Positions 952 through 30,743 of a stretch of DNA of 64,000 nucleotides are shown in pieces. Location: positions 913 to 64,912 of the forward strand of contig DASXRR010000450.1 of the NCBI GenBank assembly GCA_036506475.1. The letters run 5' to 3'. Each line of letters begins with the position of its first letter. The stretch's first letter is position 1. The position numbers and the translations under genes are program-made. Source of the stretch: Chloroflexota bacterium (GTDB lineage: Bacteria; Chloroflexota; UBA6077; CF-72). The notes under the pieces are model-generated. The model saw nothing but the letters and a program-made list of their open reading frames with translations. It was not told where the DNA came from and made no database searches.

Positions 952-1845
952 TTGAGCACCGTCATCTCCGTTGTTACGCCGACGTTCAACCGAGCGCACC
1001 TGCTTGGTCGCCTGTACGCGAGCCTGTGCGAGCAGACCTTCAGCGACTTCGAATGGCTCGTCGTCGACGATGGCTCGACGGACGACACTGCCGCGCAGCT
1101 CGAGCGCTGGCAACGGGAAGGACGGATCGCGCTGCGCACGCTGAAGCAGGCCAACAGCGGCAAGCACGTCGCGCTGAATCGTGCCGCGGAGCACGCCGAT
1201 GCCACTTTTTGCGCGGTCATCGATTCTGATGATTGGTACAAGCCCGAGGCGCTGGAGCGCCTGGTCCACCACTGGAACGCCATCCCAACCGACCAGCAAG
1301 CGCACTTCGCCAACGTCGAGGGCCTGCGTGCTTACGCGGACGGCAGGCTCATCGGCTCACCATTCCCGAATGATGTGTTGGACTCCGACACATTCGAAGT
1401 GCGCTACTGCCTGGGCGTGACCGGCGACACAGTCGGCATGTACCGCACCGACGTGCTGCGCCTGTTTCCATTCCCTGAAAACCTGGGACGTTTCGTCCCC
1501 GAAGCTCTGGTCTGGTCGCGCATCGCCAGCGTGTACCGCTCACGGTTCATCAACGAGGTGCTCGGGTTCGTGGAATACCAGCCCGGTGGCTTGTCCGATC
1601 GAGGCCTCGCCCAGCAAGTGCACGCGGCGCCAGCGTGGTCGGCTTTTTATGGCGAGCTCGCAGCAACGCCGCGCCAACTGCCGTCGGGCACGCGCCTGCG
1701 GGCTAGCGCCCAGCACGTGCGCTACATGCTGCACGCCCGGTCGTGTCAGCCATTTCGACCGCTCTACCGACCACTCTGGCTCGCCGGTGTGCCAATCGGC
1801 GTCGGCCTGTATCTGCGCGATCGGCGCAGGCTCTCCCGTCGCTGA
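952..1845 (+). CDS. Family 2 glycosyltransferase
   Basis: TTG start. The N-terminus 'ISVVTPTFNRAHLL...FEWLVVDDGSTDDT' and a later 'DSDD' motif are the classic GT2 (GT-A, DxD) signature. Confidence 0.85.
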   Translation: MSTVISVVTPTFNRAHLLGRLYASLCEQTFSDFEWLVVDDGSTDDTAAQLERWQREGRIALRTLKQANSGKHVALNRAAEHADATFCAVIDSDDWYKPEALERLVHHWNAIPTDQQAHFANVEGLRAYADGRLIGSPFPNDVLDSDTFEVRYCLGVTGDTVGMYRTDVLRLFPFPENLGRFVPEALVWSRIASVYRSRFINEVLGFVEYQPGGLSDRGLAQQVHAAPAWSAFYGELAATPRQLPSGTRLRASAQHVRYMLHARSCQPFRPLYRPLWLAGVPIGVGLYLRDRRRLSRR

Positions 1846-1852
1846 ATCGCAC

Positions 1853-3301
1853 GTGGGTCTGGCACGCCCCGTTGTCCGCAACACGCTCGCGCTGAGCGCT
1901 GGCCAGCTGGGAACACGCGCGTTGACGATTGTCTACGTCGCGGCGCTCGCGCGGCACATTCATACCGACGGCATGGGCGCTCTGGCTACCTCGCAGTCGC
2001 TCGGGGTGATCGTGGCGCTGCTCATCGGACTTGGTCACGACACCCTCGCCATCCGCGAGATCGCGGCTCGCCCGCACGAAGCAACGGCCTGGTTATGGGA
2101 CCTGCTCGGCTTACGCGTCGTGCTGTCCGTGGCCGGGTTGATCGGACTGGCGCTGTTCAGTCGACTCGTCGACTATCCGCCCGAAACGAGCCAGGTCGTC
2201 CTCGTCTACGGCCTGGTCACCGTTGTCGGCGCACTCTTATCAGTGCCACGGAACCTGATTCAGGCGCGCGAGCTCCTCGCGCTCGAGGCGGCGGTCCAGT
2301 TCGGACGCGACGTCGCCAATATCGTGCTGAGCGTGATCGCCATCGCGCTAGGCGCCAGCCTGCTGACGATCGTGTGGATTTCGGTGCTCGCCAACCTCGG
2401 CCAGCTGGCAGTTGAGCTGGCTATCGTCGCGCGGCGCAAGATGGCGACGTGGGGCCGTCCGTCGCCGGCGCGCATCCGCGCCATATTTCGCGGCGGCATC
2501 GGAATTGGCCTGGTCGTGCTGTGCAGCATCATGTACGCGCAGGTCGGGACGATTCTGCTTTCGCTCCTGGCCGGGCCAACGGCAACGGGTACGTACGCCG
2601 CCGCGTACAACCTGCTGCTCGTTCTGTTGATCGTGCCCGACATGTTCCAGCGGGCAGTCTTTCCCGTCTTCGCGAGATTGCACGCTGACCCAAATCGAAA
2701 CCTGGGCGAGGCATACGAACAATCACTGCGGGCATTGACCGCGGTCGCGCTGCCGCTGGCCATTGGCACCTTCCTTGTGGCAGAGCCGGCCATCGGCCTG
2801 TTGTATGGGCCGGACTTTGCCGCTTCCGTGGCGCCGCTGCGCGTGCTGTGCGCCGCGGTCGCGGTGACGGCGAGCTACGCCAGCGGTGCGATCCTGATCG
2901 CCACCGGCCAACAGCGCCGATTCGCGTTGACCACGGGCGCCGAGCTGTTCGTCCAGGTCGCGCTGGCTGTGGCGCTGATCCCGATCTGGGGCCCCCTTGG
3001 CGCGACCATCGGCTACGCCGTGCCGCGGGTCATCGCGTTCTTCGGCTACCTCGTGTGGTGTCATCGTCTGCTGCGTCGGCGGCCTCGGCTGGCGCCGCTG
3101 CTGCGCATCGCATTGGCCAGTCTGATCATGGGCGCCGTCGTCGTCGCCGCGCTGCAAGCGGGCGTGCACTGGCTGTGGCTGGCCTGTCTGATCGGGCCGC
3201 TAGCGTATGGTCTCGCGCTGCTCGCACTGGGCGAGCTGAAGCTCGCGGATCTACGACTGCTAGGCCGCGGACGCCTCGGAGCCCAACAGCGCCTCCAGTG
3301 A
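1853..3301 (+). CDS. Polysaccharide flippase, MOP/Wzx superfamily multi-pass membrane protein
   Basis: Long hydrophobic protein with many predicted TM helices. The GTG at 1853 lies just after the GT2 stop (1843-1845). The longer ORF from 1586 overlaps GT2 and its extension has an Arg/Cys-rich off-frame composition. Confidence 0.75.
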   Translation: MGLARPVVRNTLALSAGQLGTRALTIVYVAALARHIHTDGMGALATSQSLGVIVALLIGLGHDTLAIREIAARPHEATAWLWDLLGLRVVLSVAGLIGLALFSRLVDYPPETSQVVLVYGLVTVVGALLSVPRNLIQARELLALEAAVQFGRDVANIVLSVIAIALGASLLTIVWISVLANLGQLAVELAIVARRKMATWGRPSPARIRAIFRGGIGIGLVVLCSIMYAQVGTILLSLLAGPTATGTYAAAYNLLLVLLIVPDMFQRAVFPVFARLHADPNRNLGEAYEQSLRALTAVALPLAIGTFLVAEPAIGLLYGPDFAASVAPLRVLCAAVAVTASYASGAILIATGQQRRFALTTGAELFVQVALAVALIPIWGPLGATIGYAVPRVIAFFGYLVWCHRLLRRRPRLAPLLRIALASLIMGAVVVAALQAGVHWLWLACLIGPLAYGLALLALGELKLADLRLLGRGRLGAQQRLQ

Positions 3302-4381
3302 CGCGGCGACGTACTCGATTTGCTCCTCGGTAAGCTCGGGGAACATCGGCAGCGACAGGACTTCGCGGGCGATGCCCTCCGTAGCTGGAAGGTCGCCCTG
3401 GGCATAGCCGAGGTCGTGCGCAGCTACCTGGAGGTGGACGGGCACCGGGTAGTGGATGCCGGTGCCGACGCCGCGCTGAGCGAGCTGCGCCTGCAGCCAG
3501 TCCCGCCGCGGAGTGCGAATGACGTACTGGTGGTAGACGTGCTCGCCGTTGGCCACCAGCTCGGGCCGCACGACCGGTAAGTCGGCCAACAGCTCGTCAT
3601 AACGGGCTGCATGCTGGATGCGCCGCCCGTTCCACTCGTCCAGGTGGCGCAGCTTTATGCGTAGTACCGTGCACTGGATCTCGTCGGGCCGACAATTGAA
3701 CCCGAGCAGCGCGTGCTGGTAGCGCACCTCTTCGCCGTGGCTGCGGTACAGACGCAGTTTTCGGTCGAGCTCTGGGTCGGACGTTGTGATCGCGCCCGCT
3801 TCGCCATAGGCGCCGAGATTCTTGGAGTAGTAGAAGCTGAACGTCGCCAGATCGCCCAGGCTGCCGGCGCGCCTGCCGCGTCCATCACACGCGCCGTGTG
3901 CTTGCGAAGCGTCCTCGATGACTAGCAGGCCGTGCCGCCGAGCAATCGCCAGCAGCTGATCCATCGGGCACAGCCGGCCATAGAGATGCACCGGAATGAT
4001 GGCCCGCGTGCGCGGCGTGATGTGTCGCTCGACCTGGTCGACGTCCATGGTAAATGTGCGCGGGTCGACGTCGACGAGGACGGCCCGTGCGCCAACCTGG
4101 TCGATCGCCTCGACCGTGGCGATGAAGGTGTGGCTGACGGTGATGACCTCAGCACCCGGTCCGACGCCCGCGGCTCGGAGCGCAAGATGCAGCGCATCCG
4201 TCCCGTTACCGACCGCGACCGCGAATCGGCTGCCGCAGTAATCAGCAAACTCGGCCTCGAATGCACGCGTATTCGGGCCTAAAAACAGCTGCCCGGATTC
4301 GAGTACGGCCTCGATGGCGGGCATGAGCTCGGCACGTAGCGATCGAAACTGGGTCGGAAGATCGACCTGGGGAACGTGCAT
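3260..4381 (-). CDS. DegT/DnrJ/EryC1/StrS-family PLP-dependent sugar aminotransferase
   Basis: Contains 'FAVAVGNGTDALHLAL', 'VIEDASQAHG' and the Lys motif 'SFYYSKNLGAYGEAG'. Its 3' end overlaps the flippase 3' end convergently by 42 nt. Confidence 0.9.
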   Translation of the reverse strand: MHVPQVDLPTQFRSLRAELMPAIEAVLESGQLFLGPNTRAFEAEFADYCGSRFAVAVGNGTDALHLALRAAGVGPGAEVITVSHTFIATVEAIDQVGARAVLVDVDPRTFTMDVDQVERHITPRTRAIIPVHLYGRLCPMDQLLAIARRHGLLVIEDASQAHGACDGRGRRAGSLGDLATFSFYYSKNLGAYGEAGAITTSDPELDRKLRLYRSHGEEVRYQHALLGFNCRPDEIQCTVLRIKLRHLDEWNGRRIQHAARYDELLADLPVVRPELVANGEHVYHQYVIRTPRRDWLQAQLAQRGVGTGIHYPVPVHLQVAAHDLGYAQGDLPATEGIAREVLSLPMFPELTEEQIEYVAASLEALLGSEASAA

Positions 4382-4439: not shown

Positions 4440-6053
4440 ATGACGGGGATGCGTCTGGGCTCGAGGTTATGTGCGGTCGCGCTCATTCTGGCAGTGAGCT
4501 CGGGCTTGGCGCCCGCGAGCGCGGCGGTGAATCTCGCGAGCAGCACGCGGATCAGGCCCGATCGAGTCATCGCCGGCGGAACGGTCGCCATCAATGCGGC
4601 GTTCAATAGCGCGGACCCGCTCGAGAACGTGAATGTGGCGGTCGAGGTGCGCAGCCCGGCTGGCGAGCGTGTGTTCCAGCAGGTCATACCGGCGCAAACG
4701 TTCGTGCCAGGTCGAGATTATGCGTATGCGGCGCGCTGGTCCGTGCCACGCGACCTCACGCCCGGACTCTATTCCGTCCAGATCGGTGCATTCTCGAGCG
4801 ACTGGAGCACGAGCTATAGCTGGAACGAGCGCGCTGGGCTGGTCACGGTCACCGACAGTTTCGTCGGCTTCGTGCCCACCGCGTACTACGTCGACTGCTT
4901 GCTTGGCAACGACTCCAATGCGGGAACCGTGGCCGGTGACGCGTGGGCAAGCCTGGCACGCGCGAACGAGGCGCTGCTCCAGCCCGGTGACTTCTTGCGT
5001 CTGCGGCGTGGCTGCACGTGGACCGGTCCGCTCCTGGCCTCGTGGAATGGCACGCAGCTGCATCCGATCACGATCGAAGCCTATGGCAGTGGCAGCCTGC
5101 CCGAGATCCAGAACGACGACTTCGCGCAAGTCAACATCAAAGGCAGTTTCCTGGTTTTTGACAGCTTGCATGTGCGGTCGGATCCGGCGTTCATCGACGA
5201 GTCATGCAAGAACAACCGCATTGGCTATCGACTGGGCTTTTTCTTCGCGCCCGGCTCGAGTAACAACGTGCTCAAGAACTCGTTGATCGAGGACACTGGC
5301 GCGGGCGTGGACATCGGACCCGGCTCGTATGGGAACACGATTACCCAAAACGAATTCCTCAACAACAACATGATGTGGGACGTGGATCCGTGGCTGAACG
5401 ATGGCGGCGCCAACGGCATCCTGATCGAAGGCGACAGCAACGACGTCAGCTACAACCACATCTCAGGATCGATTGTGTGTTCGATCCGCTACCCGGCCGA
5501 CGGCTCAGCTTTTGAGCTGACTGGTGCGACGAACAATCGCATTCACCACAATCGTGTCGGCGGGAACTGGACGTTCGCGGAAGTAAGCCAGTCGACCAAC
5601 AACGACTTTGCGTACAACATCAGTACTGATTCAGGGTTCACCAATCACGCCACGTCCATCGGGACGCGCCTGTTCAACAACGTGTTCTACGTGCCCGGCG
5701 GCGGCATCGTGAGCTGTTTCCCGTGCCAGGAGGGCGGTCTGGCGTTGGTGAACAACATCATCTTCGCCGACATCGCGCTGTATACCGATGGTCCGATCGT
5801 CGAGCACAACAACGTGTACTGGCGGCCGGGCGTGGGCTCGCCGTCGATGACCATCACCCGCGATCCCTCTTCGAAGGTCGCCGACCCGATGTTCGTCGAT
5901 CCCGCGACGGGTGACTTCCACCTGCGCGCGGGCAGTCCAGCCATCAATGCGGGCAGCGCCGAGAGCATCGACGCCGGGTTCAGCCAGGATATGGACGGCA
6001 CGTCGGTGCCCATCGGGCCAGCGGTGGACATCGGCAACTTCGAGCGCGAGTAG
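4440..6053 (+). CDS. Secreted right-handed parallel beta-helix protein, paralog 1 (signal peptide, one N-terminal beta-sandwich-like domain, beta-helix)
   Basis: N-terminal signal peptide ('LCAVALILAVSSGLAPASA'). It shares 'YYVDC..GNDSNAG', 'LRRGCTWTGPL', Asn-rich 'N.I..N' helix rungs, 'HHNRV' and a C-terminal 'VADPMFVDP..GDFHL..GSPAINAG' with the ORFs at 6300, 8379 and 10406. Confidence 0.75.
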   Translation: MTGMRLGSRLCAVALILAVSSGLAPASAAVNLASSTRIRPDRVIAGGTVAINAAFNSADPLENVNVAVEVRSPAGERVFQQVIPAQTFVPGRDYAYAARWSVPRDLTPGLYSVQIGAFSSDWSTSYSWNERAGLVTVTDSFVGFVPTAYYVDCLLGNDSNAGTVAGDAWASLARANEALLQPGDFLRLRRGCTWTGPLLASWNGTQLHPITIEAYGSGSLPEIQNDDFAQVNIKGSFLVFDSLHVRSDPAFIDESCKNNRIGYRLGFFFAPGSSNNVLKNSLIEDTGAGVDIGPGSYGNTITQNEFLNNNMMWDVDPWLNDGGANGILIEGDSNDVSYNHISGSIVCSIRYPADGSAFELTGATNNRIHHNRVGGNWTFAEVSQSTNNDFAYNISTDSGFTNHATSIGTRLFNNVFYVPGGGIVSCFPCQEGGLALVNNIIFADIALYTDGPIVEHNNVYWRPGVGSPSMTITRDPSSKVADPMFVDPATGDFHLRAGSPAINAGSAESIDAGFSQDMDGTSVPIGPAVDIGNFERE

Positions 6054-6065
6054 TCTCATCCGGAT

Positions 6066-6081
6066 GGGGCCGAATGGCCCC
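6066..6081 (+). terminator. Hairpin GGGGCC-gaat-GGCCCC immediately downstream of paralog 1
   Basis: Perfect 6-bp GC stem with a tetraloop, 13 nt after the stop. No U-tract. Confidence 0.3.
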
Positions 6082-6117
6082 TACGAGCACCGACTTTCGG
6101 CGACTCAGACTAGTTCT

Positions 6118-6139
6118 GGGCGCTCTCAGCAGAGCGCTC
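6118..6139 (+). terminator. 9-bp hairpin (GGGCGCTCT-cagc-AGAGCGCTC, one G-U pair) in the paralog 1 / paralog 2 intergenic region
   Basis: Inverted repeat read directly from the sequence. This is the second hairpin in the same spacer. Confidence 0.3.
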
Positions 6140-6299
6140 GGTACGCCACAGAATCGGCCCAACACTAGCGCTCAGCGCTCGGCAAGCGGGTAGATGAGCT
6201 CTCCTCCAACGGGAGGGCGAACTCTCCACCAATGGTTGGGTTCCGCGATCGGCGAGCGGCGTCGCGACTGCGAACGCAGCGCCATCAAGGAAGGCCGCC

Positions 6300-7580
6300 A
6301 TGCTCAGGAATGCTTGTCGCGCAGCTATTGCTTTGCTCACGACGCTCGCTCTGTCGTCGCCTGTCGCACATGCCGCCCCGCAGACGTATTTCGTCGATTG
6401 CGCGGACGGCAATGATGCCAACTCCGGCAGTGATCCGGACGCGGCGTGGGCGACGCTTGGTCGGGTCGGGCAAGCGAACCTGGCGCCGGGCGATGCTGTG
6501 CGCCTCAAGCGCGGTTGCACCTGGACGGGTGTCCTGAATGCACACTGGGACGGTACCGCCGATCAGCCGATCGTCATTGCCCCATATGGTGAGGGCAATG
6601 CTCCGACGATTGAGGCCGCCGCCGACAGCGTCGACCTGTCCGGCAGCTACGTGGTCGTCGACGGTCTGGCCTTGCATGGTACGCCCGAGCGAGTCGATCC
6701 TGGCTGCAATAACCAGCCCGTCGGCTATCGCGTCGGCGTTCAGGTCAAGGGTGGTGCGCACCACAACACGGTTCGCAACTCGAACTTCAGCAGCCTGAGC
6801 ATGGGTGTCTCTGTGGCCAAGGGCGCGGCCAACAATATGATCCAGAAGAACACCTTCGCCGACGTCGACATGATGTTCACGCTCACGCCCAAGAGTGCCA
6901 ACGCATCAGATGATGGCGGGGCCCAGGCGATCCTGCTCGCAGGTGATTACAACGACGTCAGCTACAACACCGTGCTCGGCTCGATCGCGTGTTCGTACGA
7001 TTTCAACACGGATGGCGCGGTCGTCGAGATCTGGGGTGGCGGACACAATACGATCCACCACAACTATTCGGAAAATACCGACATCTTCGGCGAGGTGAGT
7101 CTTCCGTCGGCCGTCGACAACGCCTTCAGCTACAACATTGCGAACGGCCATCGCGGGCTGACCGTGCACGGTGAGACGAGCGGCACCAAGGTCTACAACA
7201 GCGTCTTCTACAGCGTTGGCGGCAGCGGCGATAACGGTGTGGTGTGCGCGTCGTGCAGCAACGCCAAACTGACGTTCAAGAACAACATCGTGTGGGCCTA
7301 CGGCGGGCTTTCGACTGGTGGCGCCCCAGCGGACGAGGGCTTCAACGTGTACTGGGCCTCGAACGGCAGCCCCTTCCTCGACGTACAGATCAGCACCACG
7401 TCGATGGTCGCCGATCCGAAGTTCGAGCAGCCCGGCAGCGATTTCCGCCTGCAGGCCAATAGCCCCGCGATCGATGCGGGCACCACCGAATCGGTGATCG
7501 CCGGCTTCACGACCGACCTGGACGATAACGCCGTCCCAGGCACCACCGCGGGTATCGAGCTAGGCACCTACGCCTTCTAA
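6300..7580 (+). CDS. Secreted right-handed parallel beta-helix protein, paralog 2 (no N-terminal beta-sandwich domain)
   Basis: Signal peptide 'AIALLTTLALSSPVAHA' is followed directly by 'YFVDCADGNDANSG', 'LKRGCTWTG', 'GSGDNGVVCASC..LTFKNNIVWAYGGLSTGG' and 'VADPKFEQPGSDFRL'. Confidence 0.75.
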   Translation: MLRNACRAAIALLTTLALSSPVAHAAPQTYFVDCADGNDANSGSDPDAAWATLGRVGQANLAPGDAVRLKRGCTWTGVLNAHWDGTADQPIVIAPYGEGNAPTIEAAADSVDLSGSYVVVDGLALHGTPERVDPGCNNQPVGYRVGVQVKGGAHHNTVRNSNFSSLSMGVSVAKGAANNMIQKNTFADVDMMFTLTPKSANASDDGGAQAILLAGDYNDVSYNTVLGSIACSYDFNTDGAVVEIWGGGHNTIHHNYSENTDIFGEVSLPSAVDNAFSYNIANGHRGLTVHGETSGTKVYNSVFYSVGGSGDNGVVCASCSNAKLTFKNNIVWAYGGLSTGGAPADEGFNVYWASNGSPFLDVQISTTSMVADPKFEQPGSDFRLQANSPAIDAGTTESVIAGFTTDLDDNAVPGTTAGIELGTYAF

Positions 7581-7601
7581 ATCCTGGCACTCGCGCTCGC
7601 C

Positions 7602-7637
7602 CCGCACGTGCCGTAGGGTTAGGCCTGGCATGTGCGG
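7602..7637 (+). terminator. 11-bp hairpin (CCGCACGTGCC ... GGCATGTGCGG, one G-U pair, 14-nt loop) downstream of paralog 2
   Basis: Inverted repeat read directly from the sequence. It overlaps the first codons of the decayed ATP-grasp ORF. Confidence 0.3.
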
Positions 7638-8317
7638 AGCCGCGTGTTGAGGCTGCTGTTCGCGGGCGATCCGCTTGCGCCACGGGCAGTCGATTCAATG
7701 TACCAGCGTGAGGCCGACGCGGCCGTGGGGCTGGGCATCGCGACTGATCTGCTCGACTTCGAGTCGCTGGTCAACGACGGCGACGCCGAACGTGCCACAC
7801 GGCGGGTCGCCGAGCCAGGGCCCGACGACCTGTGCGTGTACCGTGGCTGGAGGATGCAGCCAGCCCAATACACAGCGCTGTTCGAGGCCCTCCAGCGGCG
7901 TGGCGTCGTGCTCGTGAATGATCCCGATGCATATCGGCGGTGTCACTACTTGCCCGAGTGGTACGCCAGTCTGGCCGACAGCACCCCGCGCTCGGTCTGG
8001 CTGACGGACACATCGCTGGACGCGGTCATGCACGCTGTCCAGCCGTTGGCGCTGCGCCACTGGTGTTGAAGGACTACGTGAAGTCGCGCAAACACGAGTG
8101 GAATGAGGCCTGCTTCATTCCGTCCGCGGCCGATCGCGCCGGCGCTGAACGCGTGGTCAAGCGCTTCGTAGAGCTGCAAGGTGATGACCTGGCCCAGGGT
8201 CTCGTGTTCCGCGAGCTCGGCGACGGCCAGGTCGCGGGCTTGCCTGACAGTGCCGATCCAGCGGAGTTCTACAGAGCGTTGGCCGGCGGGCTACTTTTGC
8301 GTTACGACACAATCTGA
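7632..8317 (+). pseudogene. Decayed ATP-grasp-domain gene (frameshift plus apparent internal deletion)
   Basis: Two overlapping ORFs in different frames (7632-8069 and 7940-8317) together read like one protein. The join runs '...VYRGWRMQPAQYTALFEAL..RGVVLVNDPDAYRRCHYLPEWY' then 'PLVLKDYVKSRKHEWNEACFIP' then 'LVFRELGDGQVAGLP'. The frame switches near nt 8041-8050. The segment expected between 'LVFR' and 'ELGDGQV' in intact relatives appears to be missing. Confidence 0.55.
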
Positions 8318-8378
8318 CTAATATGCGCGCGACCGCCCCTGGCGGAATCCACCAGGTACTCGCTCAAGGAGCGGCTTC

Positions 8379-10337: not shown

Positions 10338-10405
10338 AAAAGGGCACCTCGTGCAAGGCGTGATACGCTGGCGGCGCCCCATCCGCACTTCTGGAGGAGC
10401 ACTAC

Positions 10406-13230: not shown

Positions 13231-13251
13231 CGAGCGCGGGGCCAGCGGCCA

Positions 13252-19916: not shown

Positions 19917-19920
19917 GCAC

Positions 19921-25179: not shown

Positions 25180-26285
25180 TTCGGCTGCTGCACGCGGGGC
25201 CACTGCCCCCACCGTGGAGCGGCATTGGCGTCTCGCTGCAGCAGCTGATCGCGTCGCAGCCGATGCGCGCCCAGGACATACACGTCCTGGACACCTCCTC
25301 GCGGGGCCTGCCCGGCGATCCGCGGCGCGCCAAACGACCTACGCCACGGCGTCTCGGGCGCCACGCGCGCCTGGCGCTGGAGACGACGCGGCTCATTCGA
25401 CGCCACGGCGTCCAGGTGCTGCACTGGCACGGCTCGAGTCACGACCTGTCCTTGTTCGGCAACGCGCTGAGCATCCTCGCCGCGCGAGCCGCTGGCGCGC
25501 GAACGGTGTGGCACCTGCACGAGGACCTGGGCGTCGTCGCATTTCCTGGCCAGCGGCGCACCACCCAGACCGCGTTTGCCGTTGCCATGCGCGCCGCCCA
25601 CGCTGTCGCCGTGTTGTCCGAAGCCTCGCACGCCATCGCGCGCAGCTACGTCGATCCGCACCGGCTGGCCGTTCTGCCGCCTACCTGCAGCCCCGATCTG
25701 CTCGACGTTCCAGTCGTGCGGCCCGCGGGCGAGGCGATCGTCGTCATGTTCATCGGCTGGCTTACCAGGGATAAGGGCATTTACGACCTGCTCGAGGTCG
25801 CCGACCTGCTGCGCACTGGGCAGCCGCGAGTGACGTTTCGACTCGCCGGGTCAGGTATGACCGCCGAGGAAACGGCTGCCGTTCGAGCCGAAGTCGAGCA
25901 GCGTGGGCTACAGCACCAGGTGAACCTGTGCGGTGTCGTGAGCGGCGCGCACAAGCGGCGCCTGTTCGCCGACGCGGACATCCTGTATCTGCCTACCCAC
26001 TGGGATGCCTTTCCCGTCGTGGTGCTCGAGGCTATGGCGGCCGGCCTGCCCGTCGTTTCGACCTGCGTTGGTGGCGTGCCCAGCATGGTCGAGCACACCC
26101 GCGGCGGCTTGCTCGCCGCGGTGGGCGACACGCGCCAGCAGGCAGACGACCTGCGCACACTCGCCAGCAGTCCAGAGCGGCGGCAGGCGATGGGCGGCTT
26201 CAATCGCCAGCGCTTCTGCGCCGTGTCCCATCCGGACGTCGTCGGCCAATCCGCGGTCGACCTGTACCACCGCCTGCTGGCCTGA
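25161..26285 (+). CDS. Family 4 (GT-B) glycosyltransferase
   Basis: Contains 'FIGWLTRDKGIYDLL' and 'LYLPTHWDAFPVVVLEAMAAGLPVVSTCVGGVPSMVEH..GGLL'. Start is ATG 25161 (or GTG 25176), overlapping the upstream gene end. Confidence 0.8.
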   Translation: MAGADVIRLLHAGPLPPPWSGIGVSLQQLIASQPMRAQDIHVLDTSSRGLPGDPRRAKRPTPRRLGRHARLALETTRLIRRHGVQVLHWHGSSHDLSLFGNALSILAARAAGARTVWHLHEDLGVVAFPGQRRTTQTAFAVAMRAAHAVAVLSEASHAIARSYVDPHRLAVLPPTCSPDLLDVPVVRPAGEAIVVMFIGWLTRDKGIYDLLEVADLLRTGQPRVTFRLAGSGMTAEETAAVRAEVEQRGLQHQVNLCGVVSGAHKRRLFADADILYLPTHWDAFPVVVLEAMAAGLPVVSTCVGGVPSMVEHTRGGLLAAVGDTRQQADDLRTLASSPERRQAMGGFNRQRFCAVSHPDVVGQSAVDLYHRLLA

Positions 26286-26290
26286 CGGCG

Positions 26291-27457
26291 ATGGCCAAGG
26301 GTCACGCGTGCATGCTTGCCTATGCCAACTACTTCAACGACGCGCGCATCAAAAACTACGTCGATGCACTGCTCAAATCGGGCTATGAAGTGGACGTCTT
26401 CGCGCTCGGCGAAGGCGCACCGGCGCAGCGGGGCTTGCGCGTTTTCTCACTCATGGACAAAGTCGCCAGCAGGCGTGCCTTGCCGTATCTGATTTCCCAG
26501 CTGGCCTTCTTCCTACGTGCCCTTGTGGCGGTCACCCGGTCACGACCTTACGACCTGGTGCACGTGCACAACATGCCCGACTTCATCGTGTACTGCGCAG
26601 TCTTTGCCAAGCTGCGCGGCGCGCACATCATGCTCGACATCCATGACACAATGCCCGAAGCATACGCGACGAAATTCGACCTCGACCTGAGTCATCCGCT
26701 CATCAAAGTGTTGCGGTTTGAAGAGCGGCTCAGTGCGATGTTCGCCGACGTGGTCATCACGACCAACGAGCTCCACCGCACCGCACTCATCGGGCACGGA
26801 ATTCCGGCCCACAAGATCGAGCTGATCATGAATGTCGGCAATCCGGCCATCTTCCAGCCGCGAACGCAGCGCCCCCACGCGCGCACGAGCCTGGTGCTCG
26901 GCTACCACGGCACGGTCGCCGAGCGTCTGGGTCTCGACCTTATCGTCGAAGCGGTCCGGCGAGCGCTACCAGCTTGTCCCGGCCTGCGCTTCGTCGTGCT
27001 TGGCGATGGCGAGTTCATGCCCGAGCTGCGTGCCCAGGTCAGCGCCGCCGGACTCGAGGACGTCGTTGCCTTGCGTGGTTGGCTGCCGGTCGAAGATCTG
27101 CCGCGCGCGCTCGACGAAGTTGACGTCGGTGTCGTCGGCAATCGTCGACGAACAGAGCTGCGTCAGAACTGGATGCTGCCTGTCAAGATGCTCGAGTACG
27201 CCGCCATGGAGATTCCGACCATCGCGCCGCGCTTGCGGGTCATCAATTACTACTTCGACGAACAATCGGCCCTGCTGTACGAGCCAGACGACGTGGCTGA
27301 TCTCGCGCGCGTGATTCAGGCGGTGTACGACGATCGCGGACTGCTCGATCGACTGCGCGCGGGCTTGCGCGAGTTCAACGCTCGGTACAATTGGCCGGGG
27401 ATGGAGGCGCGCTATCTCGGGCTGGCGGCAGGTTCGCGGCGGCTGCTGCGCGGGTGA
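26291..27457 (+). CDS. Family 4 (GT-B) glycosyltransferase
   Basis: Contains 'MLAYANYFNDARIKNYVDALLKSGYEVDVF', 'LGYHGTVAERLGLDL' and 'LPVKMLEYAAMEIPTIAPRL'. The ATG at 26291 is 6 nt after the upstream stop. Confidence 0.8.
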   Translation: MAKGHACMLAYANYFNDARIKNYVDALLKSGYEVDVFALGEGAPAQRGLRVFSLMDKVASRRALPYLISQLAFFLRALVAVTRSRPYDLVHVHNMPDFIVYCAVFAKLRGAHIMLDIHDTMPEAYATKFDLDLSHPLIKVLRFEERLSAMFADVVITTNELHRTALIGHGIPAHKIELIMNVGNPAIFQPRTQRPHARTSLVLGYHGTVAERLGLDLIVEAVRRALPACPGLRFVVLGDGEFMPELRAQVSAAGLEDVVALRGWLPVEDLPRALDEVDVGVVGNRRRTELRQNWMLPVKMLEYAAMEIPTIAPRLRVINYYFDEQSALLYEPDDVADLARVIQAVYDDRGLLDRLRAGLREFNARYNWPGMEARYLGLAAGSRRLLRG

Positions 27458-28491
27458 ACCTGACCCTGCGCGAGGTCGACGTTGACGATCCGAGCTGGAC
27501 ACGGTTGGTCGACAGTCACCCCGCGGCTACGCCATTCCATTGCCCAGCCTGGACCAGGCTTGTCGCCGACTGCTACGGCTTCGCGGCATCGGCGCTGGTC
27601 TTGACTGACGCCTCGGGCCAGACCGTAGCCGGACTGCCCATGGTCAGGGTGCGCGCGCCCTTGCGCGGTGAACGCGCCATCTGCCTGCCCTTCACCGACA
27701 ATTGTGGTCCGCTGTGCACCTCGGCCGAGTTGATGGCGCCGCTCGCCAGAGCGGCAGCTTCCTGGCACGACGGCTTGCCTATGGCGGTCCGCGCGCCGCT
27801 GCCGGAAGTCTCGGGCTGGCACCAGCGCGAGGTGGCGGTCCTGCACACGCTGGCGCTGGCCGCCGATCCACAGACGGTCTTTCGGACGTTCAAGCGGACG
27901 CAAGTCCAGCAGCCGATCGGGCGCGCCGAACGCCAGGGTGTCATCGTTCGACGCGCCGAGAGCTTTGCGGATGTGCGCCTGTACTACGAGCTGCACACGC
28001 AGACCCGCCGACGCTTGGGCACGCCCGTGCAGCCGCTGCGCTTCTTTCGGCTGCTCTGGGAGCGCGTCCTGTCGACTGGGCTCGGCTTTGCGCAGCTCGC
28101 ATTCCACGACGGGCGAGCGGTCGCGGGCGCGGTGTTCCTGGCCTGGAACGGGACGGTCGTTTACAAGTACAGCGCATCCGACTCGGCGTTCTGGCGCCTA
28201 CGGCCCAACAATCTCGTGCTGTGGTCGGCGATTCGGTGGGGATGCACGAACGGGTTCCGCGTGTTCGATTTCGGTCGGACGGACCTCGACAATCCTGGCT
28301 TGCGTGACTTCAAAGATGGCTGGGGCACGCGCGAGGAGCCGCTGGTGTACTCGACGCTCGGCGTGCAGGCCGGCGCAGCGCGACCCGCGCTACCGAGCCA
28401 GGCGTCGCACATTGTGAGCGCGTTCATTCGTCGATCTCCACCGTGGGTGTGCCGCACGTTGGGCGAGCTGCTGTATCGCTACGCCGCTTGA
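27454..28491 (+). CDS. FemAB-like / GNAT-fold (BioF2-like) acyl- or aminoacyl-transferase
   Basis: GTGA overlap with the upstream gene. Contains 'FHCPAWTRLVADCYGF', 'RLYYELHTQTRRRLGTPVQP', 'AVFLAWNGTVVYKYSASD', 'RPNNLVLWSAIRWGC.NGFRVFDFGRTD' and 'GLRDFKDGWG', typical of the FemAB-related proteins of EPS loci. Confidence 0.7.
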   Translation: MNLTLREVDVDDPSWTRLVDSHPAATPFHCPAWTRLVADCYGFAASALVLTDASGQTVAGLPMVRVRAPLRGERAICLPFTDNCGPLCTSAELMAPLARAAASWHDGLPMAVRAPLPEVSGWHQREVAVLHTLALAADPQTVFRTFKRTQVQQPIGRAERQGVIVRRAESFADVRLYYELHTQTRRRLGTPVQPLRFFRLLWERVLSTGLGFAQLAFHDGRAVAGAVFLAWNGTVVYKYSASDSAFWRLRPNNLVLWSAIRWGCTNGFRVFDFGRTDLDNPGLRDFKDGWGTREEPLVYSTLGVQAGAARPALPSQASHIVSAFIRRSPPWVCRTLGELLYRYAA

Positions 28492-28495
28492 GTCA

Positions 28496-29953
28496 GTGTC
28501 GATGAGCAGCGCCGAAGTCTGGTCGATTGTCCGCCGGTGGCTGTGGCTGGACGTCCTGGCTGTGCTGCTCGGCGTGGCCGGGGCGGTCGTGATCACCACG
28601 CAGCTGGCACCGGTGTACACGGCCTCGACCAAGCTGCTGGTCACGTCCACCGACACTGTGCTGACCCCGAGTCAGGTGCTGACGACCTATGCTGCAGTCC
28701 TCCAGTCGCGGCCGGTGGTTGAGGCGGCCCTCACCGATCTCGGGCTGTCGCTGGCGTACGAGAGCGTCTCGCAGGACATCGACGCTGCCCCGCTGCGCGG
28801 CGCGCAGATGATTGTCCTGACCGTCCGGGCGCGTGATCCGGAGACCGCGGCCAGGCTCGCGAACCAGCTCGCCGTCACTGCTGTGCGACAGGCGCGCGCG
28901 GCCCAGGCTGCGCAGTCCGCCGCGCGTCGGGCGCAGCTCAACGAGGCGGCCAATCAGCTTGGCACTGAAGTCGCCAATCGTGCTCGGCAGTTGGACCAGC
29001 TACGCAGTCAGCCGTCCGGCGCGGTCAGCGATGCGGATCAGGCCGCGAGCCAGGCCGCGCTCGCGGACGCCGAGCAGCGCTACGCAGCTGCCGTGCGCAG
29101 TGTGAGCGAGCAGGATCTTGCTGCTACCCGCAACGGCGATCCACTGAGCACAGTTGAGCCGGCCGTGACGCCGCTCACGGCCAGCTCCCCCCGTTTGGCG
29201 CTGAATGTCGCACTGGGTGCGCTGCTTGGACTGGCGCTGGGTGCGGCAATTGCGATGGTTGCCGAGCTGCGGCGCGATCGGATCGCGCTGCCGGACACGG
29301 TTCGACGCCGGCTGGGCCTGCCCGTGTGGGGCCACGTGCCCCGCGTGCGTCGTCTGGCGGCGGGCGCATTCGCCGAAAATTCGCCAGCCGTCGAGGCGTT
29401 TCGCCGCCTACGCACGGCGGTCCGCATGGCAATTGACCGACGCCCGTCAACCGTGCTCGTCGTCGGGACGCATGCCGGCGCTGGCGCCTCGACCATCGCG
29501 CTAGGGCTGGCGACTGCCTGGGCTCGGGCGGGCGAGCAGGTCGTGCTCGTTACAGCCGCCCCCAACTCTGTCGCAGGTGAGCCGACGCTCGAGGATGTTC
29601 CCAGCGCCCTGCAGCCCACACCTGTGGACGGCCTGCGCGTGCTCGCAGCGGATGTGACCGTAGCGCACCGCTTTTTGCGCGTGTTGAGCGTGTTGCATGG
29701 GCTCGCCGACCGCGTCGTCGTCGACGCCGCGTCGCAAAGCCTGGTGCCTCACGCTGACGCCGTCGTCCTCGTTATCGACGCCCAGGCAACCCGTGGCCGC
29801 GACGCCCTACATGCTGCGCGCACGCTGCTTTCCGCTGGCGCGCGCGTACTGGGCACCGTCCTCAACCAGATCCCTGGCACAGGGTCACCCCAGAGAGGGG
29901 CGCTTAGCCCAGCGCAGCCTGGCGCCGTCCTGGCCCCTGACCCCCGCCCCTGA
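28496..29953 (+). CDS. Wzz-type chain-length-determinant domain fused to a degenerate BY-kinase-like P-loop domain (co-polymerase 2)
   Basis: N-terminal TM plus 'VYTASTKLLVTS', a coiled region and a second TM. The C-terminal P-loop fold has Walker A 'GTHAGAGAST' (Lys replaced by Ala) and 'VVLVTAAP' in place of the DxD Walker A' motif. There is no C-terminal Tyr cluster. Confidence 0.7.
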   Translation: MSMSSAEVWSIVRRWLWLDVLAVLLGVAGAVVITTQLAPVYTASTKLLVTSTDTVLTPSQVLTTYAAVLQSRPVVEAALTDLGLSLAYESVSQDIDAAPLRGAQMIVLTVRARDPETAARLANQLAVTAVRQARAAQAAQSAARRAQLNEAANQLGTEVANRARQLDQLRSQPSGAVSDADQAASQAALADAEQRYAAAVRSVSEQDLAATRNGDPLSTVEPAVTPLTASSPRLALNVALGALLGLALGAAIAMVAELRRDRIALPDTVRRRLGLPVWGHVPRVRRLAAGAFAENSPAVEAFRRLRTAVRMAIDRRPSTVLVVGTHAGAGASTIALGLATAWARAGEQVVLVTAAPNSVAGEPTLEDVPSALQPTPVDGLRVLAADVTVAHRFLRVLSVLHGLADRVVVDAASQSLVPHADAVVLVIDAQATRGRDALHAARTLLSAGARVLGTVLNQIPGTGSPQRGALSPAQPGAVLAPDPRP

Positions 29954-29993
29954 TCCCCGATCGCTGACGGCCTAACGGTCGTTCCTCGTCCAC

Positions 29994-30010
29994 CCCTCTG
30001 GAAGAGAAAA
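29994..30010. repeat. 17-mer CCCTCTGGAAGAGAAAA, copy 1 (the second copy at 34369-34385 differs at one base)
   Basis: Read directly from the sequence. It lies in the short convergent spacer between co-polymerase 2 and the sugar transferase and is conspicuously purine/A-rich for this genome. Confidence 0.6.
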
Positions 30011-30011
30011 G

Positions 30012-30743
30012 CTAACGGGCGCCGTCGCCAGCGAGCATGGCCAGCGGCGTGCGGATGATGATCAGCACATCCAGCCACAACGACCAGCGATCGATGTACT
30101 CCAGGTCGAGCTCGATCATCTCTTCAAATGTGAGCCGCGAGCGACCGCTGACTTGCCACAACCCGGTCAGCCCGGGCGTAACAGCCAGGCGCTGCCACTC
30201 CAGTGGCCCGTACAGCTCGGCTTCATAGGGCAGCGGCGGCCGCGGCCCAACGATGCTCATGTGCCCCAGCAAGACGTTGATCAGCTGTGGGAACTCGTCG
30301 ATGCTGTAGCGACGCAGAAAGGCGCCCAGCGGCGTCACCCGTGGATCGTCGGCCAGTTTGAACGCGCCGCGGACGGGCTGCGCCTGGCCGCGGATCAGCG
30401 CGTGTGTGTACGCGCGGTGATCGGCCGGATCGTTCCCGTCGACCATGGTGCGGAACTTGTAGAACCAGAACTCCTGGCCACCACGGCCCAGCCGCCGCTG
30501 TTTGAACAGGATCGGACCGGACGACGACAACCCGACGAGCATCGCGACGACGCCCAGCACGGGCAGTAGCGCGGCAAGCAGCAACAGCGCCATCACCACG
30601 TCGAGCAGCCGCTTGACGGCGGACTGGTACAGGTGCCAGTGATCGGTCGCGACGAGGGCACCGAATCGCGTGATGTCGTCTTCTGGCCCAGAGAGCCGTC
30701 CCGACGCGCTAAGCTCCTCCACCGCTGTGCCTCCGTACAACAA
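30012..30743 (-). CDS. Polyprenyl-phosphate sugar-1-phosphate transferase (bacterial sugar transferase family, WbaP/EpsL-like priming enzyme)
   Basis: One N-terminal TM helix, then 'GPILFKQRRLGRGGQEFWFYKFRTM', 'DEFPQLINVLLGHMSIVGPRP' and 'PGLTGLWQVSGRS'. Confidence 0.9.
   Translation of the reverse strand: MLYGGTAVEELSASGRLSGPEDDITRFGALVATDHWHLYQSAVKRLLDVVMALLLLAALLPVLGVVAMLVGLSSSGPILFKQRRLGRGGQEFWFYKFRTMVDGNDPADHRAYTHALIRGQAQPVRGAFKLADDPRVTPLGAFLRRYSIDEFPQLINVLLGHMSIVGPRPPLPYEAELYGPLEWQRLAVTPGLTGLWQVSGRSRLTFEEMIELDLEYIDRWSLWLDVLIIIRTPLAMLAGDGAR

What the first reader, a model, noticed from the sequence alone, without database searches (positions are those of the whole stretch)
952..30743. 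30-kb Wzx/Wzy glycan locus with the gene repertoire of exosortase (PEP-CTERM)-type EPS loci but no exosortase, no outer-membrane exporter and no intact kinase
One locus contains a GT2, a MOP flippase, a DegT aminotransferase, a Wzy/O-antigen-ligase-like protein and four GT4 enzymes. It also contains two AsnB-type amidotransferases, two CE4-like deacetylases, an ATP-grasp ligase domain, a FemAB-like transferase, two Wzz-P-loop fusions and a convergent priming sugar transferase. From established genome-property definitions, the combination of a FemAB-related protein, an AsnB amidotransferase, a deacetylase, a chain-length determinant/kinase and an O-antigen-ligase-like protein is characteristic of PEP-CTERM/exosortase EPS loci of diderm bacteria. 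Here none of an exosortase, a Wza-type exporter or a PEP-CTERM protein is visible, and the neighbourhood (sortase, lipoprotein SBP) looks monoderm. The inference is that this may be a monoderm counterpart producing an amidated and/or amino-acid-decorated heteropolysaccharide.
Basis: partly seen in the sequence, partly recalled or inferred. Interest (0 to 1): 0.6.

Follow-up and report, generated by a model that had tools for sequence, protein, structure and literature searches.

The report
Accessory surface-sugar gene island, exosortase-independent
This is a real 30-kb gene island that lets an uncultured single-membrane soil bacterium (probably Chloroflexota) build and decorate a surface sugar polymer. 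It only distantly resembles exosortase-type loci, does not depend on an exosortase, and is an ordinary if richly decorated member of a known pathway type.

Summary
The gene inventory is essentially correct. The locus holds a GT2, a MOP flippase, DegT, a Wzy-like protein, four GT4s and a CE4–ATP-grasp fusion. It also holds a second CE4-fold protein (shown here by structure prediction), one intact and one degenerate AsnB, a FemAB-like transferase, two Wzz–pseudokinase fusions and a convergent priming transferase.

- The genome does encode an exosortase. It lies on another contig, in a second EPS locus, with three proteins that carry a variant 'TPE(L/A)' C-terminal signal.
- Congeners keep that exosortase but lack this island.
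- 45 of 50 other genomes with the FemAB-like protein have no exosortase.

The island fills a variable ComM–amidase interval. The lineage lacks Omp85 and Wza, so no outer-membrane exporter is needed.

A conserved CE4-like plus FemAB-like gene pair is widespread in Actinomycetota and Chloroflexota. It is a remote relative of TIGR03006/TIGR03019. Its closest studied analogue is the Wbp/Vim aminoacyl-sugar pathway.

Verdict: a new member of a known kind, of modest interest.

The parts
1..660 (+). Upstream boundary: 3' part of a ComM/YifB-type Mg-chelatase gene (housekeeping)
   Evidence: It is a 523-aa ORF on contig C450. Orthologues at 69-73% identity flank a different interval in congeners.
952..1845 (+). 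GT2 glycosyltransferase
   Evidence: PF00535 scores 103 bits. Only generic sub-threshold NCBIfam hits were found.
1853..3301 (+). MOP-family flippase (Wzx); the start codon is approximate
   Evidence: PF01943 scores 95.5 bits and PF13440 72 bits. There are many hydrophobic segments.
3260..4381 (-). DegT/DnrJ/EryC1 PLP sugar aminotransferase
   Evidence: PF01041 scores 409 bits. No NCBIfam equivalog cut-off is reached; PseC scores 251 against 423. Homologues lie within ±10 kb of the FemAB-like gene in 24 of 48 related loci.
4440..11758 (+). Four paralogous secreted right-handed β-helix proteins (4440-6053, 6300-7580, 8379-10337, 10406-11758) with a C-terminal choice-of-anchor-Q domain
   Evidence: There are weak PF13229, NosD and chondroitinase B hits, and NF041518 scores 22-32 bits. 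The paralogues are 42-57% identical to each other and unique to this locus in the genome. They have N-terminal hydrophobic leaders and no C-terminal membrane anchor.
11800..13230 (+). Wzy-like polymerase (or O-antigen-ligase-like) membrane protein
   Evidence: PF04932 scores 24 bits, below the gathering score of 31.7. It has about 10 hydrophobic segments and a large loop at residues 311-389. No TIGR03097 hit was found.
13252..15546 (+). CE4 deacetylase–ATP-grasp ligase fusion, cytoplasmic
   Evidence: PF01522 scores 26.5 bits and PF02786 43 bits. PDB sequence hits are to ATP-grasp carboxylases. It has no TM segment or signal peptide.
15543..16697 (+). GT4 glycosyltransferase a
   Evidence: PF00534 scores 108 bits. 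TIGR03088 scores 106 against a cut-off of 409.
16705..18636 (+). AsnB1: intact glutamine-dependent amidotransferase
   Evidence: TIGR01536 scores 458 bits against a cut-off of 267. TIGR03108 scores 447 against 817. GATase_7 and Asn_synthase domains are present. The N-terminus reads (M)CGIAG.
18633..19916 (+). Wzz–P-loop fusion 1 (co-polymerase with a degenerate BY-kinase domain)
   Evidence: TIGR01007 scores 68 against 108 and TIGR03018 scores 69 against 231. It has two TM segments. The Walker A region reads GANPSANSAS, without Lys.
19921..21039 (+). Divergent CE4/NodB-fold deacetylase-like protein (Pfam-less), cytoplasmic
   Evidence: The model has pLDDT 91.4. Foldseek top hits are all polysaccharide deacetylases. 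Invariant residues are H144, D145, E147, H198, H202, R233, D289 and H323. It co-occurs with the FemAB-like gene in 39 of 48 loci and is adjacent to it in 24 of 41.
21040..22212 (+). GT4 glycosyltransferase b
   Evidence: PF13692 scores 88 bits.
22191..23429 (+). GH4-like NAD-binding protein
   Evidence: PF02056 scores 57 bits and PF11975 64 bits.
23422..25179 (+). AsnB2: divergent AsnB-like protein without the glutaminase nucleophile
   Evidence: TIGR01536 scores 53.6 against 267, with no Pfam hit. It starts MIDLLG (no Cys2) and keeps SGFDS. BLASTP against AsnB1 gives E=0.005.
25161..26285 (+). GT4 glycosyltransferase c
   Evidence: PF00534 scores 99 bits.
26312..27457 (+). GT4 glycosyltransferase d, start/stop-coupled to the FemAB-like gene
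   Evidence: PF13692 scores 63 bits and PF13579 62 bits. Homologues lie near the FemAB-like gene in 31 of 48 loci.
27454..28491 (+). FemAB/VimA-like (Acetyltransf_6) transferase, cytoplasmic
   Evidence: PF13480 scores 75 bits and PF02388 31 bits. TIGR03019 scores 147 against 260. The only PDB sequence hit is FemX (6snr), at E=0.003. More than 850 homologues were found.
28496..29953 (+). Wzz–P-loop fusion 2 (co-polymerase with a degenerate kinase domain)
   Evidence: PF02706 scores 25.9 bits. TIGR01006 scores 79 against 296. The Walker A region reads GTHAGAGAST, without Lys. It is 31% identical to fusion 1.
30012..30743 (-). Small monotopic polyprenyl-phosphate sugar-phosphate transferase (priming enzyme), convergent
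   Evidence: PF02397 scores 212 bits. TIGR03025 scores 276 against 296 and TIGR03013 scores 145 against 393. It has one hydrophobic segment.
30996..32540 (-). Downstream boundary: amidase (housekeeping)
   Evidence: PF01425 is recorded for the orthologue in L004. Orthologues at 65-68% identity occur in congeners.

Best explanation
The region is an accessory, species-specific Wzx/Wzy-dependent island. It makes a decorated cell-surface heteropolysaccharide in a monoderm bacterium, probably Chloroflexota.

**Proposed pathway**
1. The small monotopic phosphoglycosyl transferase (30012-30743) primes polyprenyl phosphate.
2. One GT2 and four GT4 enzymes build the repeat unit on the cytoplasmic face.
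3. Soluble cytoplasmic tailoring enzymes act on nucleotide- or lipid-linked sugars.
   - DegT makes an amino sugar.
   - The two CE4-fold proteins remove N-acetyl groups.
   - The ATP-grasp domain and the FemAB/VimA-like transferase re-acylate the freed amines with a carboxylate or an amino acid.
   - AsnB1 (and perhaps the glutaminase-dead AsnB2) converts a carboxylate to an amide.
4. The MOP flippase exports the unit.
5. The Wzy-like protein polymerises it.
6. Two Wzz-type co-polymerases set chain length. Their kinase domains have lost the Walker A lysine.
7. The four secreted β-helix proteins most likely trim, modify or bind the polymer outside the cell.

No outer-membrane exporter is needed, because there is no outer membrane. 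The island works independently of the genome's exosortase, which belongs to a different EPS locus.

**Status of the claims**
- Shown: gene content, folds and motifs, genomic variability, and lack of coupling to the exosortase.
- Inferred: the sugar chemistry, the order of steps, and the role of the β-helix proteins.
For: **Pathway parts present.** All parts of a Wzx/Wzy pathway are there.

**Tailoring enzymes are cytoplasmic.** They have no signal peptide or TM segment.

**CE4 fold.** The Pfam-less protein is shown to have a CE4 fold, with conserved metal and catalytic residues.

**Conserved gene pair.** The CE4-like plus FemAB-like pair is conserved across Actinomycetota, Chloroflexota and Dormibacterota. 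It occurs in 39 of 48 loci and is adjacent in 24 of 41. A GT4d homologue is present in 31 of 48, DegT in 24 of 48 and AsnB in 14 of 48.

**Analogy to Wbp/Vim.** This is the composition of the experimentally studied Wbp/Vim pathway (PMC7468200):
- VimE (CE4) removes the 2-N-acetyl group.
- VimA (which matches TIGR03019) adds Ser or Gly.
- WbpS (AsnB family) makes the uronamide.

**Independence from the exosortase**.

**Accessory nature.**
- The ComM–amidase interval is 30 kb here.
- In G056 it is about 6 kb and carries a sugar ABC transporter.
- In G054 it is about 8 kb.
- In G052 the contig region beside the amidase orthologue carries different glycan genes; ComM was not found within the about 20 kb fetched.

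**The locus is maintained.**
- Gene order from AsnB1 to Bac_transf is the same in GCA_009772835.1. In GCA_009772905.1 the locus is covered only from GT4b onward.
- A pooled tblastn gave 69-89% amino-acid identity for these genes.

**Monoderm host.** No Omp85 is found in this genome or in 40 of 41 relatives, and no Wza is present.
Against: - No sugar structure, expression data or genetics exist. The organism is an uncultured MAG (90% complete, 6% contamination).
- The Wzy assignment rests on a sub-threshold Pfam hit.
- The locus lacks the WbpA, WbpB and WbpD-type genes (UDP-sugar dehydrogenase, 3-oxidase, N-acetyltransferase). The substrate of DegT, AsnB and CE4 is therefore unknown and must rely on genes elsewhere or on other sugars.
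- I could not compare the proteins directly with VimA and VimE sequences.
- Both co-polymerases have dead kinase domains and AsnB2 is degenerate. Regulation, and part of the chemistry, may differ from textbook systems.
Confidence: 0.72

Rival explanations
1. The island is one half of a split exosortase system. It would make an aminoacylated sugar with a free amine. The C54 exosortase would use that amine in trans as the acceptor for proteins with TPE(L/A)-type C-terminal tails. This is analogous to the Wbp/Vim linking sugar of type IX secretion.
For: - The genome has an exosortase and three candidate substrates.
- The C54 locus lacks FemAB-, CE4- and AsnB-type genes, which occur only in the window island.
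- Veith et al. speculated that VimA-related proteins of exosortase loci make the unknown acceptor (PMC7468200).
Against: - Five congeners keep the exosortase but have no FemAB-like gene at all.
- 45 of 50 genomes with the FemAB-like subfamily lack any exosortase.
- No exosortase homologue lies within ±10 kb of the FemAB-like gene in the 80 related loci.
- All XrtA-subfamily models score below their cut-offs.
Confidence: 0.08
2. The locus glycosylates proteins, or makes a wall-linked glycan, rather than a free EPS. The Wzy_C-type membrane protein would act as a ligase or oligosaccharyltransferase. The four co-encoded secreted β-helix proteins, or sortase substrates, would be the carriers.
For: - The Wzy_C domain is shared by O-antigen ligases and O-oligosaccharyltransferases, and the hit here is weak.
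- Four secreted paralogues are embedded in the locus.
- In congener G052 the contig region beside the amidase orthologue holds a glycan set with a DUF4012–sortase fusion.
- A sortase and LPxTG-type proteins exist in this genome.
Against: - Two Wzz-type co-polymerases argue for polymerisation of repeat units.
- The β-helix proteins carry no recognisable anchoring signal.
- The only sortase in the window lies 19 kb away among housekeeping genes.
Confidence: 0.13
3. The island is a decaying, non-functional remnant, with dead kinases, a degenerate AsnB and a weak Wzy.
For: - The Walker A lysine is lost in both P-loop domains.
- AsnB2 lacks its nucleophile.
- Pfam scores for Wzy and Wzz are sub-threshold.
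Against: - All 21 frames are open, and many are start/stop-coupled.
- The genes are 69-89% identical at the amino-acid level, in the same order, in two other assemblies.
- The degenerate features are shared by paralogues and so look old and tolerated.
Confidence: 0.05

Closest known systems
Wbp/Vim linking-sugar pathway of Porphyromonas gingivalis and Tannerella forsythia (VimE, VimA, VimF, WbpE, WbpS; PMC7468200)
   Same: - The enzyme set is the same: a CE4 deacetylase, a FemAB/TIGR03019-like transferase, a GT4, a DegT aminotransferase and an AsnB-family amidotransferase.
- The vimA/vimE-type genes are typically adjacent. Here the pair is adjacent in 24 of 41 related loci.
- The enzymes are cytoplasmic and act on sugar precursors.
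   Different: - In the Wbp/Vim case the host is a diderm with type IX secretion, and the sugar links proteins to A-LPS.
- The full WbpA/B/D set is missing from this island.
- In this window the CE4-like and FemAB-like genes lie 6.4 kb apart.
- An additional CE4–ATP-grasp fusion and a second AsnB-like gene are present.
- No direct sequence comparison with VimA or VimE could be run here.
XrtA/PEP-CTERM exosortase EPS loci (Haft et al. 2006, PMC1569441; NCBIfam TIGR03006, 03007, 03013, 03018, 03019, 03108)
   Same: The repertoire is homologous: deacetylase, FemAB-like, AsnB, Wzz, P-loop, sugar transferase, GT4 and Wzy-like. TIGR03019 is the only curated model hit by the window's FemAB-like protein.
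   Different: - All subfamily scores are far below their cut-offs.
- The locus has no exosortase, no PEP-CTERM protein and no Wza.
- The island does not co-occur with exosortases across genomes.
- The host has no outer membrane.
[quoted passage not shown]
   Same: - Small priming transferase, DegT-type amino-sugar step, GTs, flippase and Wzy polymerase.
- A Wzz-like co-polymerase with a P-loop partner.
- No outer-membrane exporter.
- A locus that varies between strains.
   Different: - The P-loop domains are fused to Wzz and are catalytically dead.
- No phosphatase or LytR-CpsA-Psr-type attachment enzyme was found in the locus.
- The load of amide- and acyl-decorating enzymes is heavy.
- Four secreted β-helix paralogues are embedded in the locus.

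Membership tests
XrtA/PEP-CTERM exosortase EPS locus | An exosortase (EpsH family) encoded in or beside the locus | tested here: not met
   None lies between the ComM and amidase boundaries, nor anywhere else on contig C450. The single genomic copy is on C54 (PF09721 161.7 bits; TIGR02602 127.5 against 105.55; XrtA model 143.9 against 208).
XrtA/PEP-CTERM exosortase EPS locus | PEP-CTERM substrates in the genome or locus | tested here: not met
   PF07589 finds nothing in the genome. Three proteins with a variant TPE(L/A) tail exist on C54, C404 and C516, and none is in the window. No locus protein has a C-terminal anchor.
XrtA/PEP-CTERM exosortase EPS locus | FemAB family protein reaching the TIGR03019 cut-off (260.35 bits) | tested here: not met
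   The window protein scores 147.6 bits. All 27 subfamily members match the model, with best E=1.9e-45. Member bit scores other than the window's are not shown in the output.
XrtA/PEP-CTERM exosortase EPS locus | Amidotransferase 1 reaching the TIGR03108 cut-off (816.9 bits) | tested here: not met
   AsnB1 scores 447.4 bits, while the generic TIGR01536 model scores 458 against 267. AsnB2 scores 36 bits.
XrtA/PEP-CTERM exosortase EPS locus | Polysaccharide deacetylase of family TIGR03006 | tested here: not met
   Neither window CE4 protein hits it at E<=0.001. Only 14 of 42 homologues of the CE4-like protein hit it weakly (best E=2e-5).
XrtA/PEP-CTERM exosortase EPS locus | Chain-length determinant (TIGR03007) and tyrosine autokinase (TIGR03018) at cut-off | tested here: not met
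   TIGR03007 scores 20.9 against 278.85. TIGR03018 scores 69.1 against 230.65. The Walker A lysine is absent in both proteins.
XrtA/PEP-CTERM exosortase EPS locus | Priming transferase of family TIGR03013 and O-antigen-ligase-like protein of family TIGR03097 | tested here: not met
   TIGR03013 scores 145.3 against 393.35. The Wzy-like protein has no NCBIfam hit.
XrtA/PEP-CTERM exosortase EPS locus | Wza-type outer-membrane polysaccharide exporter and an outer membrane | tested here: not met
   PF02563 is absent from the genome. Omp85 is absent here and in 40 of 41 relatives.
XrtA/PEP-CTERM exosortase EPS locus | Co-distribution of the locus families with exosortase across genomes | tested here: not met
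   Only 5 of 50 genomes with the FemAB-like subfamily have an exosortase. Within the genus the exosortase is in 6 of 9 genomes, and the FemAB-like gene is in 1 of 9 plus one 39-residue fragment.
Wzx/Wzy-dependent polysaccharide pathway | Polyprenyl-phosphate priming transferase | tested here: met
   PF02397 scores 212 bits against a cut-off of 27.
Wzx/Wzy-dependent polysaccharide pathway | MOP-family flippase | tested here: met
   PF01943 scores 95.5 against 28.2.
Wzx/Wzy-dependent polysaccharide pathway | Wzy polymerase | tested here: inconclusive
   PF04932 scores 24 bits, below 31.7. The protein has about 10 hydrophobic segments and one large loop.
Wzx/Wzy-dependent polysaccharide pathway | Wzz/PCP co-polymerase | tested here: met
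   PF02706 scores 25.9 against 25.5 for the second fusion and 21.9 for the first. Both have two TM segments, a coiled middle region and a P-loop domain.
Wbp/Vim-type aminoacyl-sugar module | Paired CE4 deacetylase and FemAB/VimA-like transferase | tested here: met
   The CE4 fold was shown by model and Foldseek. The FemAB-like protein has PF13480 and PF02388 hits. The pair is conserved in 39 of 48 loci and adjacent in 24 of 41. Orthology to VimA and VimE themselves was not tested, because their sequences were not on hand.
Wbp/Vim-type aminoacyl-sugar module | Wbp precursor enzymes (WbpA dehydrogenase, WbpB oxidase, WbpE aminotransferase, WbpD acetyltransferase) | tested here: not met
   Only the DegT (WbpE-like) protein is present in the island. 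No UDPG_MGDP_dh, GFO_IDH_MocA or Hexapep domain was found. Some related loci do carry them.
Wbp/Vim-type aminoacyl-sugar module | Aminoacyl transfer to a de-N-acetylated sugar amine | not testable with these tools
   This needs an enzyme assay or the glycan structure.

The most novel reading that the evidence does not exclude
The Pfam-less CE4-like deacetylase and the FemAB-like transferase form an old, widespread gene pair found mainly in Terrabacteria. It would be a sister to the XrtA-associated TIGR03006/TIGR03019 pair and to VimE/VimA. The pair would install an amino acid on a surface amino sugar. In monoderms the free amine of that aminoacyl-sugar could serve as the acceptor for covalent protein-to-glycan attachment by a sortase-type or exosortase-type transpeptidase. 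In this genome, the candidate proteins would be the TPE(L/A)-tailed proteins or the LPxTG proteins.
Probability: 0.1. Interest if true: 0.7.

Novelty: new member of a known kind. Interest (0 to 1): 0.33.

Why it matters
The result gives a useful caution. The 'exosortase-type' repertoire (FemAB-like, AsnB, deacetylase, Wzz/P-loop, Wzy-like) does not by itself indicate an exosortase system. In Actinomycetota and Chloroflexota the same enzyme module is common in genomes that have no exosortase.

The conserved CE4-like plus FemAB-like pair is a concrete, testable candidate for amino-acid decoration of surface glycans in poorly studied monoderm soil phyla. The chemistry of that decoration is still unproven outside Porphyromonas and Tannerella.

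The island itself is an ordinary strain-variable surface-glycan locus.

Tried and rejected
- **Is the locus cut by the contig end, with the exosortase contig adjacent?** Rejected. A housekeeping ComM gene bounds the locus upstream.
- **Is C54 a contaminant contig?** Its GC content and tetranucleotide profile are typical of the bin. The same exosortase is conserved in 5 congeners.
- **Pfam PEP-CTERM model on the genome.** No hit. A regex mining of ORF C-termini was needed to find the three variant tails. The first regex filters missed the C54 protein.
- **Sequence-only tests of the second 'CE4-like' protein.** Pfam, NCBIfam, PDB phmmer and BLASTP against the CE4 domain of the fusion all failed. 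Only the fold search settled it.
- **Physical linkage of exosortase and FemAB-like genes in 80 related loci.** None was found by tblastn with this genome's exosortase. In L032 no large minus-strand ORF like that genome's 898-aa exosortase frame lies within about 7 kb of the FemAB-like gene.
- **Literature searches.** Searches for exosortase in Chloroflexi, and for FemAB plus exosortase plus EPS, gave nothing directly relevant.
- **Taxon names.** Names of the closest relatives are not shown by the tools. The taxon (Chloroflexota) rests on two organism-named hits only: enolase at 81% and exosortase at 64% identity.
- **A failed first pass.** A first tblastn run mixed several loci stored in one file and was redone per record.

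Full report
**Setting**

The window is G000:C450:913-64912, from a 7.15-Mb MAG. The assembly has 524 contigs, 90% completeness, 6% contamination and 66% GC. The organism-named relatives point to Chloroflexota: a housekeeping enolase hit at 81% identity and an exosortase hit at 64% identity. Omp85/BamA is absent from this genome and from 40 of 41 relatives up to class level. In the same search it rang in all seven diderm control genomes. No Wza-type exporter is present. A small sortase lies in the window at 49985-50542 (−), and several LPxTG-type tails occur in the genome.

**Observation**

ORF listing and Pfam/NCBIfam scans confirm a contiguous glycan locus from 952 to 30743. A ComM-type gene bounds it upstream. 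An amidase, OsmC, SDR, SHMT and glycolysis genes follow it downstream.

Contents, in order:
- GT2
- MOP flippase
- DegT (− strand)
- four paralogous secreted β-helix proteins
- a 10-TM Wzy-like protein
- CE4–ATP-grasp fusion
- GT4a
- AsnB1 (intact)
- Wzz–P-loop fusion 1
- a Pfam-less protein
- GT4b
- a GH4-like protein
- AsnB2 (divergent; no Cys nucleophile; SGFDS retained)
- GT4c
- GT4d
- FemAB-like transferase
- Wzz–P-loop fusion 2
- a convergent small priming transferase

The Pfam-less protein had no sequence-level match anywhere. An alignment of 42 homologues shows invariant His, Asp and Arg residues in a NodB-like pattern. The AlphaFold model is confident (pLDDT 91.4). Foldseek returns only polysaccharide deacetylases and relatives at the top.

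Both P-loop domains lack the Walker A lysine, and neither has a tyrosine tail.

*(a) Subfamily HMMs.* Every XrtA/PEP-CTERM model is far below its curated cut-off:

| Model | Score (bits) | Cut-off (bits) |
|---|---|---|
| TIGR03019 | 147 | 260 |
| TIGR03108 | 447 | 817 |
| TIGR03018 | 69 | 231 |
| TIGR03007 | 21 | 279 |
| TIGR03013 | 145 | 393 |
| TIGR03088 | ≤106 | 409 |
| TIGR03006 | no hit | – |
| TIGR03097 | no hit | – |

For AsnB1 the generic TIGR01536 model scores 458 bits against a cut-off of 267.

*(b) Whole-genome search.* One exosortase exists, at C54:9205-10068 (−). C54 is compositionally typical of the bin. The exosortase sits in a second EPS locus. That locus contains:
- a full-length priming transferase (TIGR03025, 409 bits against 296);
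- WecG, GT2 and GT4 enzymes;
- a Wzy-like protein and a chain-length determinant;
- a P-loop protein with an intact GEGKT Walker A;
- a HlyD-like protein.

The gene immediately upstream of the exosortase encodes a secreted protein. Its C-terminus reads …TPELDSLALFGTGAMGMIGYGLTRLRAARRRES. Two more proteins, on C404 and C516, carry the same kind of tail. In five of six relatives' exosortase loci the neighbouring gene ends in (T/I)PE(L/A)DS plus a hydrophobic stretch and an Arg-rich tail. None of these proteins is in the window, and no window protein has such a tail.

*(c) Phylogenetic profiles.*
- Within the genus, 6 of 9 genomes have the exosortase.
- Only this genome has the FemAB-like gene, apart from one 39-residue fragment at a contig end.
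- Among 50 named genomes that carry the FemAB-like subfamily, only 5 have any exosortase.
- tblastn with this genome's exosortase found no homologue within ±10 kb of the FemAB-like gene in the 80 related loci.

*(d) Synteny.*
- GCA_009772835.1 shares the gene order from AsnB1 to the priming transferase. In GCA_009772905.1 the locus is covered only from GT4b onward.
- A pooled tblastn gave 69-89% amino-acid identity for these genes.
- In congener G056 the ComM–amidase interval is about 6 kb and holds a sugar ABC transporter.
- In G054 the interval is about 8 kb.
- In G052 the contig region beside the amidase orthologue holds a different glycan gene set, including a DUF4012–sortase fusion. ComM was not found within the about 20 kb fetched.

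The island is therefore an accessory, variable surface-glycan locus at a conserved chromosomal site. The FemAB-like, CE4-like, AsnB2, Wzy, Wzx and β-helix genes have no paralogues elsewhere in the genome.

**What remains of the resemblance**

The FemAB-like protein has more than 850 homologues. The 80 best loci come mostly from Actinomycetota (Gaiellales, Solirubrobacterales, Streptosporangiales), Chloroflexota and Dormibacterota. A few come from diderm phyla.

Within ±10 kb of the FemAB-like gene, in the 48 loci of at least 18 kb:
- the CE4-like protein recurs in 39 of 48;
- a GT4d homologue in 31 of 48;
- DegT in 24 of 48;
- a small priming transferase in 19 of 48;
- AsnB in 14 of 48.

Among the 41 related loci with a long CE4-like match, the CE4-like gene is directly adjacent to the FemAB-like gene in 24. 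All 27 sampled members of the FemAB-like subfamily hit TIGR03019. 14 of 42 CE4-like members hit TIGR03006 weakly. The module is thus a remote relative of the XrtA-locus pair, but it is a separate subfamily that lives mostly in exosortase-free monoderms.

**Closest characterised system**

- VimE, a CE4 enzyme, is proposed to remove the 2-N-acetyl group.
- VimA matches TIGR03019. Interspecies complementation showed that it determines whether Ser or Gly is added.
- WbpS, an AsnB-family enzyme, makes the uronamide.

The paper already notes vimA/vimE pairs in species without exosortases. It also notes vimA-like genes in exosortase loci.

Haft et al. 2006 state that only EpsH lacks homologues in PEP-CTERM-negative genomes (PMC1569441).

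**Mechanism**

The tailoring enzymes (both CE4 proteins, ATP-grasp, FemAB-like, AsnB) have no signal peptide or membrane segment. They should therefore act on nucleotide- or lipid-linked precursors inside the cell. The repeat unit is then flipped, polymerised and length-controlled outside.

The locus lacks WbpA, WbpB and WbpD-type genes, so the exact sugars are unknown. The GH4-like NAD-binding protein might supply an oxidation step. This is pure inference.

**Verdict**

The locus is real. It is an exosortase-independent Wzx/Wzy glycan island with a Vim-like amide/aminoacyl decoration module. It is a new member of a known kind.

The most interesting by-product lies outside the window. It is an exosortase with an undescribed TPE(L/A)-type sorting signal, in an Omp85-less lineage that also uses a sortase.

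Noticed in passing
G000:C54:1-17300 (loci L001/L002); also C404:1869-3272 and C516:23575-23979: The genome's only exosortase lies in a second EPS locus. It meets no Xrt subtype cut-off. Three signal-peptide proteins end in 'TPE(L/A)…LFGTG…Y.L.R(L/V)RA.R(R/K)'. The same tail type sits next to the exosortase in 5 of 6 relatives (L089-L093). No NCBIfam or Pfam sorting-signal model recognises it. The lineage has no Omp85 (40 of 41 relatives), so this is an exosortase system in a monoderm that also has a sortase and LPxTG proteins.
   Followed up: partly
window 4440-11758: Four tandem paralogous secreted β-helix proteins (42-57% identical) lie inside the glycan locus. Each has a C-terminal choice-of-anchor-Q domain and no anchor signal after it. 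Two carry extra N-terminal β-sandwich-like repeats with weak Wzt_C/BsuPI hits. The N-terminal about 80 residues resemble the start of lacto-N-biosidase LnbX (6kqs) and 7v6m. GC content is slightly lower here (62-64%).
   Followed up: partly
window 22191-23429: A GH4-family (NAD/Mn-dependent glycosidase-like) protein is embedded in the biosynthetic operon and conserved in the two near relatives. This is an unusual place for a GH4 enzyme. It may act as an NAD-dependent sugar oxidase.
   Followed up: no
L102 (G052:C428) 13204-15765: In a congener, the contig region beside the amidase orthologue carries a different glycan gene set. It includes an 853-aa DUF4012–sortase fusion next to a Bac_transf gene and a Wzz/GNVR–P-loop gene.
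   Followed up: no
window 7581-8378: An 800-bp gap lies between the second and third β-helix genes. It holds only short ORFs (7632-8069 and 7940-8317). It was not examined.
   Followed up: no
window 49985-50542 (−): A small sortase (HVDW…LTLISCGG) lies among housekeeping genes, 19 kb from the island. LPxTG-type tails (LPRTGD, LPATGD, LPSTGG) occur on at least six ORFs elsewhere in the genome.
   Followed up: partly
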